The position numbers were made by a program, and so were the translations under genes. A stretch of 32,000 nt of DNA from Candidatus Heimdallarchaeota archaeon (GTDB lineage: Archaea > Asgardarchaeota > Heimdallarchaeia > Heimdallarchaeales > Heimdallarchaeaceae). The notes under the pieces were generated by a model. It was not told the DNA's origin and ran no database searches. It saw nothing but the letters and a program-made list of their open reading frames with translations. Of the stretch, positions 18,471 through 21,095 are shown in pieces (the first letter of the stretch is position 1; each line of letters starts with the position of its first letter). The stretch is taken from contig DAOVER010000007.1 of NCBI GenBank assembly GCA_030668875.1, forward strand, positions 59,645 to 91,644, read 5' to 3'.

Positions 18471-21095
18471 CTATTCTTTCTTTTTCATTCTATTTGAAAA
18501 TTGTAATGCATGATCTAATGTCTTTTGACTAGAAGTTCTAATGTCTTTCATTTCTACTTTTACGCCTATGCGATGAACATCTCGTAAAGCTTCACGCAAG
18601 TAGTGTTCTTTATCAATTTTTGAAGGTATAACCACTGAAGGATGTTTTGATCTTTTGTACAATGAAACCTTTCCTTCTTGAATAATGAATGGAAATCGAT
18701 CAAAATCCTTCCAGATCTCATTTATGTTCAAATGGTTGGTTTGTGCATAGTCTTCTAGAGCACCAATTGCAGGAGTCTTGCTTTTATACTCGTTGGGATT
18801 TCTTCGTATAGGTCCAAGAATAGTTGTTTTTTCAATTAACTCTTTATCCTCTGAAGTTTCGAAATTCAAACATAATTCAATTACTTTATCTCTTGCTTTT
18901 GAAATGCTACCTTCTTCCAAAACTAGTTTTAAGGCTTCTTTCTGGACTTCAGCTGCAAATGGTGATGTATCACTTCGAATAGCTTCAAATCCTACAATAG
19001 TTAACTCTTGAGAGACTGCACTGACGTAGCTATAACGTTTTTTGGTTTCAGGTGCAAAAACAATTCTTAGAGCTAGGTCAACAAATTCTAATTCCATCTC
19101 TTTTGGAAGTTTTGATCTAAAATACTGAAGGAGATTCTTAGCTTCGGATACATCATTAATGGAAAATGATTCTCCCTTTTTTGAGTTAGCATATACATCA
19201 AACACTGCTTGTTTTTCAGATAATTTGACAAAAATACTATCTGTATCACCATAAATAACTTGACACTTACCTTTTGTTAATTCTAGAGTCCACTTATCTA
19301 GGTTTTTGATGTATTCCTTGGAGATACTTGTTATAGCATTAGAAATATCTGTATTAAAGAATCTACTTCCGACATAATTATGACTGCCATATAGTGAATT
19401 TGCAACGATTTTCAGGGCACTTGATTTCGTTTTAAACTTCTTGAGCTTCCTCTCTAAGCTAGTTTTTCCACTATTTTTTGTGAAAGTTCTAAGATAAGTT
19501 TCCAATTCGTAAATGTTCTTTTTGAGTTCCTTTCTTTCATCTAGAATTTGCTTTTCCATGATTTTTAAGGCAGTATCAGGTTCAGAGAGAAATTTCTTTG
19601 TTGGTTCAGCTACTGAAGAATCATAGCTTTCACCACCAATATTGTATGCAACCATTATGCTTGGAAACATAGAACGAAAATCAGCTATTAGCACTGCTTC
19701 ATGAAGTGTCCCTTTAGGAACTAGAACAAATCCTCCAACTGCCATCGCTCTATTACTTTTTCGAAGAACAAGTTCCTTCTTGCTAGGTTCCGAGGGTATA
19801 ATTGTGTTTTTTCCATGCAATATTCTGAAGAGTTGAAACTCTCCAATATGCCTCGGAGTTGAATAAACAGCTTCAGAAGGTCTTAATCCTACAAGTTTCA
19901 TGACTTCTAACCATTCAGTCATCCCCATAGCATCGAAAAGAGCATAGGTGATATTAGAATCTTGAGAATTCAAGCTTTGTATTTTGCGTTTATTCATACC
20001 TTTCTTCAGTATAATCCACTCAAACCATAACTTGTTGATAGTTTCATAGTCGACTTTGCGTTCAATTTTAAGATATTCCCTTGCTAAATCAGTAAGACCT
20101 TTTTTGCCAGATCTAGTTCTTAACCATCTAGTACTTTTAAGTAAATCATAAGAAATCAATCCAGGAATTCTGTATCCAAGGTATCCAATTGGTAACTTAA
20201 TTTTAGCCTTGTTCATAGGACTCAAGGAATTTGGATCTAAACCTAAATTTTCCATGCGTTTTAACAAGTAAGGCAATGTGATTCTATTACCATTAAATGT
20301 GATTAAAATTTCAGGATTTTTTGAATGTATCTCCTTGATAACATTGTCAATTAATTGTTTCTCAGATTCATCTGTATCGTGTTCTAGAATGAAGGTTCTG
20401 TTTTTAGGTTTCGAACTACTTTCTTCAGTTCCCCAGCAAATACTCATTGAGATTATTCTTTGCTTACCTTCGTCCATAATACTGGAAAAATTGTGTATCT
20501 TCTTACCTTGGGGAGTGAAAGAATTGATAATCAAATTTAAACTTAATAGTGTTAGAGGAAATAACCCATCATCAACTGGTGTGATATTTTCATAATTGAC
20601 TTCTAATACTTTGAAGTTGTTTTCTATACTTTTGTCTTTGTAATTCTTTATTTCAACCCAATTTAATCCTTTAATTTTTGTATCAATTAGAAATCGTGCT
20701 GTATATGAAATATCGTTTTCATAGCTATTGATTCCTTTAGATTGGAGGATTCTACTATATTTTAATACTCTCCAAGGATTTCTTCCTAAGACTTTCCGTA
20801 AGAATATAGGTTTGTTTTGATAATACTTAAACTTGGATACGGGGTAAGAACCTTTAATCCAAGTTCCAAATTCCTTCTCGGTAGATAACAGACTTTGAAT
20901 AGCTTTTGTAGTTTCACGTAGATCATCAATGTAAAAATATGGGTAAAAACCAGTAATATGCAGGATAAGTGGTTTTTTGTTTTGATCTTTTGCTCGAATG
21001 CGAATAATTGGCTCTTCTATTCCTTTCTCCTTTTCTTCAATAAAAAAATCTAGATCAACTATAAAACATCTTAATGGAGAAGAACTAGTTTTCAT
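18471..21095 (-). CDS. polB: Family B DNA polymerase (archaeal PolB3-like architecture) with degenerate 3'-5' exonuclease motifs and a C-terminal PIP-like box
   Basis: N-terminal domain GFYPYFY and RFLID-x2-I-x-G-x-NW; motif A DFRSMFPSI; motif B K-x3-NSLYG; motif C YGDTDSIF; KKRY; GFEAIRSD; C-terminal QKTLDHAL. Confidence 0.95.
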   Translation of the reverse strand: MKTSSSPLRCFIVDLDFFIEEKEKGIEEPIIRIRAKDQNKKPLILHITGFYPYFYIDDLRETTKAIQSLLSTEKEFGTWIKGSYPVSKFKYYQNKPIFLRKVLGRNPWRVLKYSRILQSKGINSYENDISYTARFLIDTKIKGLNWVEIKNYKDKSIENNFKVLEVNYENITPVDDGLFPLTLLSLNLIINSFTPQGKKIHNFSSIMDEGKQRIISMSICWGTEESSSKPKNRTFILEHDTDESEKQLIDNVIKEIHSKNPEILITFNGNRITLPYLLKRMENLGLDPNSLSPMNKAKIKLPIGYLGYRIPGLISYDLLKSTRWLRTRSGKKGLTDLAREYLKIERKVDYETINKLWFEWIILKKGMNKRKIQSLNSQDSNITYALFDAMGMTEWLEVMKLVGLRPSEAVYSTPRHIGEFQLFRILHGKNTIIPSEPSKKELVLRKSNRAMAVGGFVLVPKGTLHEAVLIADFRSMFPSIMVAYNIGGESYDSSVAEPTKKFLSEPDTALKIMEKQILDERKELKKNIYELETYLRTFTKNSGKTSLERKLKKFKTKSSALKIVANSLYGSHNYVGSRFFNTDISNAITSISKEYIKNLDKWTLELTKGKCQVIYGDTDSIFVKLSEKQAVFDVYANSKKGESFSINDVSEAKNLLQYFRSKLPKEMELEFVDLALRIVFAPETKKRYSYVSAVSQELTIVGFEAIRSDTSPFAAEVQKEALKLVLEEGSISKARDKVIELCLNFETSEDKELIEKTTILGPIRRNPNEYKSKTPAIGALEDYAQTNHLNINEIWKDFDRFPFIIQEGKVSLYKRSKHPSVVIPSKIDKEHYLREALRDVHRIGVKVEMKDIRTSSQKTLDHALQFSNRMKKKE

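What the first reader, a model, noticed from the sequence alone, without database searches (positions are those of the whole stretch)
18471..21095. PolB with intact polymerase site but eroded proofreading site (Pol alpha/zeta-like configuration)
Seen: ExoI (normally F-D-I-E) reads SLNLII; ExoII (YNGDxFD) reads FNGNRIT; ExoIII (Y-x3-D) reads LNSQD. About three of the four catalytic carboxylates are lost. Polymerase motifs A, B and C are intact, and a PIP-like QKTLDHAL remains at the C-terminus. Motif A is DFRSMFP instead of DFxSLYP: Met sits at the position of the yeast Pol delta L612M / Pol alpha L868M mutator substitutions (Pol epsilon naturally has Met there), and Phe replaces the steric-gate Tyr. 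Established: eukaryotic Pol alpha and zeta are active B-family polymerases with dead exonuclease domains, whereas archaeal PolB2 is usually more degenerate than this. Inference: a PCNA-recruited, low-fidelity or repair-type PolB paralog, relevant to how eukaryotic alpha/zeta-type polymerases arose.
Basis: partly seen in the sequence, partly recalled or inferred. Interest (0 to 1): 0.72.

Follow-up and report, generated by a model that had tools for sequence, protein, structure and literature searches.

The report
Proofreading-dead DNA polymerase B in Heimdallarchaeaceae
This gene of a Heimdall-group Asgard archaeon encodes a B-family DNA polymerase with an intact copying site and a destroyed proofreading site; its whole archaeal family shares that loss, selection still preserves the gene, and it always sits beside a small protein whose predicted fold resembles a DNA-break sensor, so it is probably a specialised repair-type polymerase that arose in parallel to, not as an ancestor of, eukaryotic Pol alpha and zeta.

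Summary
Window 18471-21095 (-) is an 874-aa PolB. Motifs A, B and C and the KKRY motif are intact. Three of the four exonuclease carboxylates are lost (N187, I189, T273); only the ExoIII Asp (D379) remains.

This is not a one-off. All orthologs checked in the same family (Heimdallarchaeaceae, 45-93% identity) lack the ExoI Asp/Glu pair. Orthologs in two neighbouring families of the same order, and most other Asgard members, keep DIE / FD / YxxxD. dN/dS is 0.08-0.14, so the gene is under purifying selection.

It is neither PolB1 nor PolB2. It lies in an Asgard-specific PolB clade (100/100), sister (96/93) to an Aenigmatarchaeota/Methanosarcinales clade, probably B6.

The genome also encodes an exo-intact PolB1, PolD (DP1 and DP2), a Y-family Pol IV and PCNA.

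- Met in motif A is ancestral to the clade, not tied to exonuclease loss.
- NGD to NGN does not affect a catalytic residue.
- The "PIP" is a conserved but degenerate C-terminal motif.

New here:
- A conserved, family-restricted neighbour (21263-21643 +) has a WGR-like predicted fold.
- A second, independent ExoI loss occurs in a paralog in another family.

Most likely role: a proofreading-less repair, gap-filling or extender polymerase. No biochemistry exists, and I found no prior report.

The parts
18471..21095 (-). polB gene, 874 aa: an exonuclease-dead, polymerase-intact B-family DNA polymerase of the Asgard-specific PolB clade.
   Evidence: ORF and translation; Pfam PF00136 and PF03104; AF2 pLDDT 90.9, pTM 0.85; Foldseek TM 0.71/0.81 to KOD/9N PolB; trees.
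20526..20543 (-). ExoI position, SLNLII. The catalytic Asp is N187 and the catalytic Glu is I189.
   Evidence: D141A/E143A at the homologous positions compromises (abolishes) the exonuclease of T. kodakarensis PolB (PMC13136892).
20277..20297 (-). ExoII position, FNGNRIT. The catalytic FD Asp is T273. The NGD Asp is N270, a non-catalytic and variable position.
   Evidence: HMMER alignment to 9N PolB; column census.
19959..19973 (-). ExoIII position, LNSQD. The Tyr is L375; the Asp (D379) is retained.
19662..19682 (-). Motif A, DFRSMFP. The metal-binding Asp D472 is intact. M476 is ancestral to the clade. F477 sits at the steric-gate Tyr position.
19386..19412 (-). Motif B, KIVANSLYG, intact.
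19236..19253 (-). Motif C, YGDTDS, with both catalytic Asp residues intact.
18504..18527 (-). Conserved C-terminal motif QKTLDHAL in a low-confidence (probably disordered) tail. It is a degenerate PIP-like motif.
   Evidence: Conserved as SQKTLD[FH] in genus-level orthologs and [TI]LDFSL across the family. Exo-intact relatives end in L-x-x-F-[FLI]. pLDDT is 49-59 for residues 851-874.
21096..21262 (.). A 167-bp A+T-rich intergenic region shared by the divergently transcribed polB and the 126-aa gene. It is a probable bidirectional promoter region (inference).
   Evidence: Sequence; the same divergent arrangement is found in all family genomes that have the pair.
21263..21643 (+). A 126-aa orphan protein (P0199) with a WGR-like predicted fold. 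It is family-restricted and always adjacent to the exo-dead polB.
   Evidence: AF2 pLDDT 78.8. Foldseek: PARP2 WGR, TM 0.56/0.62. Atlas: PF05406 clusters. VIA-align wide: top five hits are WGR domains, Z 7.9-8.4. Found in 26/29 genomes of the family and 0/52 of the rest of the class. No sequence-level family hit.
21654..22676 (-). Two co-oriented upstream genes, syntenic across the family: a NUDIX hydrolase (22227-22676) and a 190-aa multi-pass membrane protein (21654-22226).
   Evidence: Pfam PF00293; translations; synteny in 24-25 loci. The NUDIX substrate cannot be assigned.
17689..18438 (+). A convergent downstream gene for an ArsR/HTH_20-like 249-aa protein, syntenic across the family.
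   Evidence: Pfam PF12840; NCBIfam, weak; synteny in 22 loci.

Best explanation
The gene encodes a catalytically competent B-family DNA polymerase that has permanently lost 3'-5' proofreading. The exonuclease domain is kept as a structural scaffold.

It is the Heimdallarchaeaceae ortholog of an Asgard-specific PolB lineage. The ExoI Asp/Glu pair was lost on the stem of that family. The ExoII Asp, and the Tyr to Phe change in motif A, followed in the sub-lineage that contains this genome.

The cell also has PolD (DP1 and DP2), an exo-intact PolB1, a Y-family Pol IV and PCNA. This enzyme is therefore most likely a specialised, non-proofreading polymerase for short-patch synthesis. Candidate roles are extension from mismatched or lesion-paired termini after the Y-family inserter (as Pol zeta and Sulfolobus Dpo2 do) and gap filling at nicks or breaks. 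The adjacent WGR-like protein may help by recognising DNA ends.

Shown: motif states, clade-wide conservation of the loss, purifying selection, phylogenetic position, the polymerase repertoire of the genome, synteny, and the neighbour's predicted fold. Inferred: absence of exonuclease activity, retention of polymerase activity, the repair or extender role, and any partnership with the WGR-like protein or PCNA.
For: 1. Exonuclease site. N187, I189 and T273 replace three of the four metal-binding carboxylates. D141A/E143A alone compromises the exonuclease of T. kodakarensis PolB (PMC13136892).
2. Polymerase site. D472, K562, N566, Y569, G570, D617, D619, K686 and Y688 are conserved. The full-length model is confident (pLDDT 90.9) and superposes on DNA-bound KOD/9N PolB (TM 0.71/0.81), Pol delta (0.73) and Pol alpha (0.70).
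3. Functional gene. Pairwise dN/dS is 0.08-0.14 overall and 0.09-0.16 in the exo domain. One copy is present in 26 of 29 genomes of the family; the three without it are 72-79% complete.
4. Lineage-specific loss. All 20 family orthologs examined lack the ExoI Asp and Glu. Orthologs in same-order families f3 and f4, and the sister P0058, keep DIE / GDxFD / YxxxD.
5. Back-up proofreading and a TLS inserter in the genome. PolB1: NF004417, 909 bits against a cut-off of 780, with DIE, NGDNFD, YNAQD and a C-terminal QKSLDNWF. DP2. DP1: 440.7 bits. Pol IV: 336 bits against a cut-off of 256. PCNA. PF00136 finds only two PolBs in this genome, and only two in a closed Heimdallarchaeum chromosome. It did detect Acidianus PolB2 (E 6e-13), so a PolB2 would probably have been seen.
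6. Repair context. The divergent neighbour P0199 has a WGR-like fold by three structural searches. It has the same phyletic pattern and constant adjacency. A NUDIX gene is syntenic upstream.
7. Precedent. PolB2/Dpo2 of Sulfolobus acts as an extender in TLS (PMC8764526), and Kazlauskas et al. conclude that B2 and B3 enzymes can serve in repair (PMC7544198).
Against: There is no biochemical or expression evidence.

The neighbourhood holds no canonical repair gene. The WGR assignment is structural only: Z about 8, TM about 0.6, model pLDDT 78.8, and no sequence support.

Co-occurrence of polB and P0199 within one family is a single evolutionary event, not independent replication.

In Thermococcus, PolB works on the lagging strand and in Okazaki-fragment maturation (PMC13136892). 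A replicative role with proofreading supplied in trans is therefore not excluded.

Phe at the steric gate and Met in motif A do not by themselves predict low fidelity. The PIP-like motif lacks its aromatic pair in this genome.
Confidence: 0.55

Rival explanations
1. It is a replisome polymerase that works on the lagging strand or in Okazaki-fragment maturation and has shed its own proofreading. Errors would be corrected in trans by the DP1 exonuclease of PolD or by PolB1. Loss of the exonuclease would favour strand displacement.
For: T. kodakarensis PolB acts on the lagging strand and outperforms PolD in strand displacement and Okazaki maturation (PMC13136892). The gene is single-copy, near-universal in the family and under strong purifying selection. 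A conserved C-terminal motif sits where relatives carry a PIP box. PolD and PolB1 are present.
Against: A bulk-synthesis enzyme without proofreading would raise the mutation load. The exo-intact PolB1, with its canonical PIP, is the more obvious partner for PolD. The PIP-like motif is degenerate here. The neighbour with a break-sensor-like fold points to repair.
Confidence: 0.22
2. It is a Pol alpha-like initiator.
For: Pol alpha is an exo-dead PolB (PMC7544198). Heimdall-group primases are eukaryote-like and make primers shorter than 9 nt (PMC12770985). No Pol alpha or B subunit has been found in Asgard genomes (same paper), so the function is unassigned. Foldseek TM to human Pol alpha is 0.70.
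Against: The protein has no Cys-rich C-terminal domain for B-subunit or primase binding (sequence). The exonuclease loss is confined to one family, whereas the eukaryote-like primase spans the whole Heimdall clan. Yeast two-hybrid work found that Heimdallarchaeal primase interacts with the DP2 C-terminal domain (PMC12680538). There is no primase gene nearby.
Confidence: 0.08
3. It is a non-catalytic structural protein, or a decaying gene, comparable to the inactive C-terminal half of Pol epsilon.
For: One active site is already dead. Exo-domain identity among orthologs is lower than polymerase-domain identity (0.45 against 0.63).
Against: Every polymerase catalytic residue is conserved. dN/dS is 0.05-0.10 in the palm and fingers in most close pairs (up to 0.16) and 0.09-0.16 in the exo domain. 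The reading frame is intact in 20 of 20 orthologs examined.
Confidence: 0.04
4. The exonuclease is still active through substitute residues, for example D379 with other acidic residues, or one-metal chemistry.
For: D379 (ExoIII) is invariant. The exo domain remains under purifying selection. The Heimdallarchaeum sub-clade still has the ExoII and ExoIII Asp residues.
Against: There is no acidic residue within the ExoI strand (LLSLNLIINS) or the ExoII segment (ITFNGNRITLPY). The replacements vary among orthologs (N/S/G/K/R and I/V/A/F/T), which is the pattern of a released site rather than a rebuilt one.
Confidence: 0.05

Closest known systems
Archaeal PolB3 (Thermococcales PolB: KOD, 9N, Tgo, Pfu)
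   Same: These are the best sequence and structure matches: phmmer E 1e-41, profile score 449 bits, Foldseek TM 0.71/0.81. They share the N-terminal, exonuclease and polymerase architecture, motifs A, B and C, and the PYFY and P-x-x-V N-terminal elements.
   Different: Identity is only 21-23%. The target is not inside the B3 clade in the tree. It is about 100 aa longer. Its exonuclease carboxylates are lost, whereas B3 enzymes proofread.
Asgard-specific PolB clade (exo-intact members in Hodarchaeota, Borr-/Sifarchaeia and other Heimdallarchaeia; P0043-P0063, L010-L019)
   Same: They form one clade with 100/100 support on a long stem (1.12). They share DFxSM[YF]PS, KIVANSxYG[SA]HN and a C-terminal L-x-x-F motif, at 30-38% identity.
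   Different: They keep DIE / FD / YxxxD. The target's family does not.
Archaeal group B6 of Kazlauskas et al. 2020 (Aenigmarchaeota/Methanosarcina; 'Delta-like' clade)
   Same: A clade with that taxonomic make-up is the sister group of the Asgard clade (96/93). Its members pass TIGR00592.
   Different: The target scores only 120 bits on TIGR00592, below the cut-off. It has no C-terminal Zn-binding domain. Equating my clade with B6 rests on taxon composition and partial Cys signatures only.
Eukaryotic Pol alpha and Pol zeta catalytic subunits
   Same: They are B-family polymerases with an active polymerase site and an inactivated exonuclease domain retained as a scaffold (PMC7544198). Foldseek TM to Pol alpha is 0.70.
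   Different: The inactivation is independent: it occurred on the stem of one archaeal family. The target has no CysA/CysB C-terminal domain and no B subunit. Profile scores are lower than to archaeal PolB (273 and 226 bits against 449). Phylogeny with eukaryotic sequences was not run.
Archaeal PolB2 (Sulfolobus Dpo2)
   Same: It is an exonuclease-deficient archaeal PolB that coexists with other PolBs and acts as a TLS extender (PMC8764526; PMC7544198). It is the closest functional analogue.
   Different: B2 lacks ExoIII altogether and has a single Asp in motif C plus a D(K/R) motif. The target has a recognisable ExoIII with its Asp and a full YGDTDS. Acidianus B2 is a distant long branch outside the clade.

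Membership tests
B-family DNA polymerase (PF00136 / PF03104) | Polymerase domain with motifs A (DxxSLYPS), B (KxxxNSxYG) and C (YGDTDS), plus the KKRY motif. | tested here: met
   PF00136 scores 116.8 bits against a cut-off of 23. DFRSMFPS, KIVANSLYG, YGDTDS and KKRY are present.
B-family DNA polymerase (PF00136 / PF03104) | DnaQ-like exonuclease domain fold N-terminal to the polymerase domain. | tested here: met
   PF03104 scores 63.5 bits against a cut-off of 23. The AF2 model is confident across residues 131-392.
Proofreading-proficient PolB | Four exonuclease carboxylates: ExoI D and E, ExoII D, ExoIII D, plus the ExoIII Tyr. | tested here: not met
   N187, I189, T273 and L375 replace them; only D379 is kept.
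Archaeal PolB2 | ExoIII missing; one Asp in motif C with a conserved His; a D(K/R) motif; clusters with B2 (PMC7544198). | tested here: not met
   ExoIII is recognisable and its Asp is kept. Motif C is YGDTDS. Acidianus B2 groups with B1 outside the clade (95/84).
Archaeal PolB1 | Passes the NCBIfam PRK05761 equivalogs and clusters with Sulfolobales Dpo1. | tested here: not met
   NF004417 scores 71.8 bits against a cut-off of 780. The genome's other PolB scores 908.9 bits and groups with Acidianus B1 at 100/100.
Archaeal PolB3 (sensu stricto) | Clusters with Sulfolobales Dpo3 and Thermococcales PolB. | tested here: inconclusive
   The target falls in a separate 100/100 Asgard clade that is sister to the B6-like clade, not inside the clade that holds Acidianus B3. 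No Thermococcales sequence was in the tree. The published naming of Asgard PolBs (clades A-F, PMC12680538) could not be inspected.
Eukaryotic Pol alpha/zeta type | C-terminal CysA/CysB metal-binding domain that binds a B subunit. | tested here: not met
   There is no Cys-rich C-terminal domain. The protein ends about 30 residues after the thumb, in a disordered tail.
Eukaryotic Pol alpha/zeta type | Phylogenetic placement with eukaryotic Delta-like PolBs. | not tested
   No eukaryotic sequences were available for the tree. Only PDB profile scores are at hand.
PCNA-interacting protein (PIP box) | Q-x-x-[LIM]-x-x-[FYW]-[FYWL] at a disordered terminus, with binding to PCNA. | tested here: inconclusive
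   QKTLDHAL has Q1, L4 and L8 but no aromatic residue at positions 7/8. The tail is disordered. The motif is conserved in orthologs.
WGR domain (PF05406), for the neighbour P0199 | WGR fold. | tested here: met
   Foldseek: PARP2 WGR, TM 0.56/0.62, probability 1.0. Atlas: clusters with PF05406 in 18-77% of members. VIA-align wide: the top five hits are all WGR domains, Z 7.9-8.4. The model has moderate confidence (pLDDT 78.8) and Z about 8 is borderline.
WGR domain (PF05406), for the neighbour P0199 | Sequence match to the Pfam model and the W-G-R signature. | tested here: not met
   There is no Pfam hit for any of 15 orthologs even at E 10. There is no PDB sequence hit. The invariant S-F-G-x-R-x-G resembles S-W-G-R-x-G only as I recall it.

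The most novel reading that the evidence does not exclude
Heimdall-group Asgard archaea repeatedly turned copies of one Asgard-specific PolB lineage, sister to the B6/'Delta-like' group, into exonuclease-dead specialists. It happened once as the sole copy in Heimdallarchaeaceae, where it is coupled to a new WGR-like DNA-end sensor. It happened again after gene duplication in another family, where an exo-intact and an ExoI-dead paralog coexist. That would be a living prokaryotic example of the split between a proofreading replicase and a non-proofreading specialist that produced Pol delta versus Pol alpha/zeta. It would also give a polymerase plus WGR module that prefigures the eukaryotic use of WGR domains in break sensing.
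Probability: 0.2. Interest if true: 0.8.

Novelty: new variant of a known kind. Interest (0 to 1): 0.58.

Why it matters
Natural loss of proofreading in a B-family polymerase that still has a working polymerase site is the hallmark of eukaryotic Pol alpha and zeta and of archaeal PolB2. Here the same outcome arose independently, in the archaeal group closest to eukaryotes, in a PolB lineage outside B1, B2 and canonical B3.

It provides three things:
- A datable inactivation, on the stem of one family, with intermediate states. ExoI is lost first, then the ExoII Asp.
- A second, duplication-based case in a sister family.
- A candidate partner with a DNA-break-sensor-like fold.

These make division of labour among archaeal polymerases, and the way exonuclease-dead specialists evolve, testable with a few recombinant proteins. 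The enzyme itself could also be of practical interest as a natural exo-minus archaeal PolB.

Tried and rejected
- PolB2 membership: rejected by motif C, ExoIII and the tree.
- PolB1 membership: rejected.
- Met in motif A as a mutator adaptation: rejected, because it is ancestral in exo-intact relatives.
- Link between loss of the clade's P-H-x-G-G (Y-GG/A region) and exonuclease loss: I considered this. I rejected it, because exo-intact P0058 and the f3/f4 orthologs already lack the P-H.
- Expression: no RNA holder is listed among public runs.
- Earlier scan notes: nothing on this gene by place or by sequence.
- Literature: four full-text searches, plus reading PMC7544198, PMC12680538, PMC12198294, PMC12993045 and PMC12770985. 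None mentions an exonuclease-dead Heimdallarchaeaceae PolB. The supplements of PMC12680538 are not held. The Kazlauskas supplement does not list AB_125 PolB groups in text. A search on WGR domains in archaea gave nothing useful.
- Sequence-level identification of P0199: Pfam, NCBIfam, PDB profile and ESM Atlas feature searches gave nothing.
- NUDIX substrate assignment: only weak, mixed NCBIfam hits, none near its cut-off.

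
Full report
**Observation.** The minus-strand ORF at 18471-21095 is open, begins with ATG and encodes 874 aa. Pfam assigns PF00136 (polymerase, residues 419-843) and PF03104 (exonuclease domain, residues 124-292).

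Assignment to the canonical exonuclease motifs rests on four lines of evidence:
- A HMMER alignment to Thermococcus 9N/KOD PolB pairs YNGDNFDF with FNGNRITL and YSMEDAKVTY with LNSQDSNITY.
- A profile-to-PDB match starts at profile position 180 = Pfu residue 134, which puts N187 and I189 on D141 and E143.
- MAFFT alignments of 25, 70 and 265 PolBs agree.
- The secondary structure of a confident AF2 model (pLDDT 90.9, pTM 0.85) has strand 182-190 and helices 269-283 and 369-389 in the expected places.

One correction is needed. The catalytic ExoII residue is the Asp of F-D (here T273). It is not the Asp of N-G-D (here N270), which is already N, Q, S, E or T in a large share of exo-intact PolBs. 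The tally is therefore:
- ExoI Asp to N187: lost.
- ExoI Glu to I189: lost.
- ExoII Asp to T273: lost.
- ExoIII Asp D379: kept.
- ExoIII Tyr to L375: lost.

In T. kodakarensis PolB the double change D141A/E143A is the substitution pair used to compromise (eliminate) the exonuclease (PMC13136892). The prediction that this enzyme cannot proofread is therefore strong, although it remains an inference.

**Polymerase site.** D472 (motif A), K562, N566, Y569 and G570 (motif B), Y615, D617, T618, D619 and S620 (motif C), and K686 and Y688 (KKRY) are invariant or nearly invariant in an alignment of 70 diverse PolBs that includes this protein. The model superposes on DNA-bound KOD/9N PolB (TM 0.71 by query, 0.81 by target), yeast Pol delta (0.73) and human Pol alpha (0.70).

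**Who has it.** Homologs at 45-93% identity all come from Heimdallarchaeota or Heimdallarchaeaceae assemblies, among them AB_125 and the closed genomes of Ca. Heimdallarchaeum.
- In the window's own taxonomic family, 26 of 29 genomes carry one copy. The three without it are 72-79% complete.
- All 20 orthologs I extracted have the ExoI Asp and Glu replaced, with varying residues (N/S/G/K/R and I/V/A/F/T). They keep motifs A, B and C.
- The Heimdallarchaeum sub-lineage still has the ExoII Asp and a Tyr at the steric gate. The sub-lineage holding this genome has lost the ExoII Asp and has Phe. The erosion was therefore stepwise.
- Orthologs in two other families of the same order (f3 and f4), and the nearest outgroup P0058, have intact DIE / GDxFD / YxxxD. 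The loss maps to the stem of one family.

**Selection.** Nei-Gojobori dN/dS between close orthologs is 0.08-0.14 for the whole gene, 0.05-0.10 for the palm and fingers in most pairs (up to 0.16 in one) and 0.09-0.16 for the exonuclease domain. Among orthologs, pairwise identity in the exo domain is 0.45 against 0.63 for the polymerase domain. In exo-intact sisters the figures are 0.44 and 0.51. The dead domain is somewhat relaxed but clearly maintained, as in Pol alpha and zeta.

**Phylogeny.** I ran IQ-TREE with LG+C20+F+G4 (PMSF), 56 rows and 806 columns, with ultrafast bootstrap and SH-aLRT support. A 104-row quick tree agrees.
- The target sits in an Asgard-specific clade (100/100, stem length 1.12).
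- This clade is sister (96/93) to a clade of Aenigmatarchaeota, Methanosarcinales, Methanotrichaceae and Hadarchaeota PolBs.
- By taxon make-up and partial Cys signatures that sister clade is probably group B6 of Kazlauskas et al., which they place with eukaryotic Pol alpha/delta/zeta in a 'Delta-like' clade (PMC7544198).
- Acidianus B3 and DPANN B3-like sequences are further out. Acidianus B1 with the genome's own PolB1 (100/100), and the long-branched Acidianus B2, form the outgroup.
- The target is therefore not PolB1 and not PolB2.
- No NCBIfam equivalog cut-off is reached: the best is NF004421 at 148 bits against 570. Exo-intact members of the clade do not reach one either.
- I could not include eukaryotic sequences, so the relation to Pol alpha/delta/zeta is untested. 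PDB profile scores are 449 bits for Thermococcales PolB, 335 for Pol delta, 273 for Pol alpha and 226 for Pol zeta.

**Recurrent loss.** Within the Asgard clade the exonuclease site has been damaged more than once.
- Family f7 genomes carry two paralogs that are 44-45% identical. One has DIE / GDxFD / YxxxD. The other has N-x-K in ExoI and has lost the ExoIII Tyr. Both have intact polymerase motifs.
- Isolated cases (P0073, P0065, and P0062 in part) and a Bathyarchaeia pair inside B3 (L071, L073) show further losses.

**Genome context.** The 3.23-Mb assembly is 92% complete. It also encodes:
- A PolB1: NF004417 at 909 bits against a cut-off of 780, with exo motifs intact and a C-terminal QKSLDNWF.
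- PolD large and small subunits.
- A Y-family Pol IV: 336 bits against a cut-off of 256.
- One PCNA.

The two PolBs are only 23% identical. A closed Heimdallarchaeum chromosome likewise has only an intein-bearing second PolB (apparently the PolB1 counterpart; not classified here) and the exo-dead enzyme. No PolB2 is found, and the same Pfam search does detect Acidianus PolB2.

**Neighbourhood.** The order NUDIX (22227-22676 -), 190-aa membrane protein (21654-22226 -), 126-aa orphan (21263-21643 +), polB (-), ArsR/HTH-like (17689-18438 +) is conserved across the family, including Heimdallarchaeum.
- The 126-aa gene diverges from polB across 167 bp.
- Its orthologs are 64-95% identical, which is more conserved than polB itself.
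- It occurs in exactly the 26 family genomes that have the exo-dead polB, and in none of 52 other genomes of the class.
- It has no sequence-level family.
- Its AF2 model (pLDDT 78.8) matches WGR domains in three structural searches. Foldseek against the PDB finds PARP2 WGR at TM 0.56/0.62. The ESM Atlas finds clusters carrying PF05406, one of them fused to an ATP-dependent DNA ligase. A Foldseek-independent scan puts PARP3, PARP1 and a Bacteroides WGR protein in all five top places, at Z 7.9-8.4.
- From established knowledge, WGR domains of PARP1-3 bind DNA breaks. This is a lead, not proof: Z about 8 is borderline, and one family counts as one evolutionary event.

- Met at the position of yeast Pol delta L612 is present across the Asgard clade, including exo-intact members, and in several outgroups. 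It says nothing about this enzyme's fidelity relative to its kin.
- Phe for the steric-gate Tyr is derived within the exo-dead clade. It preserves the ring, so its effect on rNTP discrimination is open.
- The C-terminal QKTLDHAL lies in a low-confidence tail, where exo-intact relatives have L-x-x-F-[FLI] in canonical PIP register. The exo-dead clade has a conserved but shifted [TI]LDFSL, and this genome and its closest relatives have H for the F. Binding to PCNA is possible but not shown.

**Interpretation.** The best reading (about 0.55) is a polymerase-active, proofreading-dead specialist for short-patch synthesis. That means extension after the Y-family inserter, and/or gap filling at nicks and breaks, possibly together with the WGR-like neighbour. 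PolD and PolB1 would carry out accurate bulk synthesis. Sulfolobus Dpo2 (PolB2), an extender in translesion synthesis (PMC8764526), is the closest functional analogue, and this family lacks PolB2. Rivals are:
- A lagging-strand or Okazaki-maturation role with proofreading in trans (0.22; compare PMC13136892).
- A Pol alpha-like primer extender for the eukaryote-like, short-primer Heimdall primase (0.08; PMC12770985, PMC12680538).
- Residual exonuclease activity through other residues (0.05).
- A non-catalytic protein (0.04).

**Novelty.** The PolB clade itself is surely included in published Asgard PolB trees (PMC12680538, clades A-F). In four full-text searches and five papers read, I found no statement that the Heimdallarchaeaceae enzyme, or the f7 paralog, has lost its exonuclease site, and none about the WGR-like neighbour. 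I rate it a new variant of a known kind: a naturally exo-dead PolB. Its link to eukaryotic Pol alpha/zeta is one of parallel evolution, not ancestry.

Noticed in passing
window 21263-21643 (+); orthologs e.g. L009:2466-2840 (-), L110:963-1337 (-): A 126-aa orphan protein is transcribed divergently from polB. It is 64-95% identical across Heimdallarchaeaceae, is found only in that family (26/29 against 0/52 genomes) and is always next to the exo-dead polB. Its predicted fold matches WGR domains (PARP1/2/3, Z 7.9-8.4), with no sequence-level family hit.
   Followed up: partly
G072:C5 (L133) and G072:C60 (L134); G074:C41 (L132) and G074:C94 (L115): Genomes of another family of the same class (f7) carry two paralogs of the Asgard PolB clade, 44-45% identical. 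One has intact DIE / GDxFD / YxxxD. The other has ExoI N-x-K and has lost the ExoIII Tyr. Both have intact polymerase motifs. This is an independent, duplication-based loss of the exonuclease site.
   Followed up: partly
L071, L073 (Bathyarchaeia/Bathyarchaeota MAGs): Two Bathyarchaeia PolBs inside the Sulfolobales-type B3 clade also lack the exonuclease residues (signature SINDFN in place of DE.DYD), while motifs A and C are intact. This is another apparent natural exo-dead PolB.
   Followed up: no
window 22227-22676 (-) and 21654-22226 (-): A NUDIX hydrolase and a 190-aa multi-pass membrane protein form a co-oriented pair upstream of polB, syntenic across the family. The NUDIX substrate cannot be assigned: weak hits spread over MutT, NudI, RppH and dihydroneopterin-triphosphatase models.
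   Followed up: partly
L001:109-2727 (+) (G000 contig C68): The genome's PolB1 ends in a textbook PIP box, QKSLDNWF. Several PolB1 orthologs in the family sit in open frames of 1170-1530 aa, and in Heimdallarchaeum the match is split within one 1343-aa frame, which suggests inteins.
   Followed up: no
window 13708-16453 (-): Two adjacent TldD/PmbA-type metallopeptidase genes (478 and 464 aa) have called ORFs that overlap by about 85 bp, so the start of the downstream gene is probably mis-set by the mechanical ORF call.
   Followed up: no
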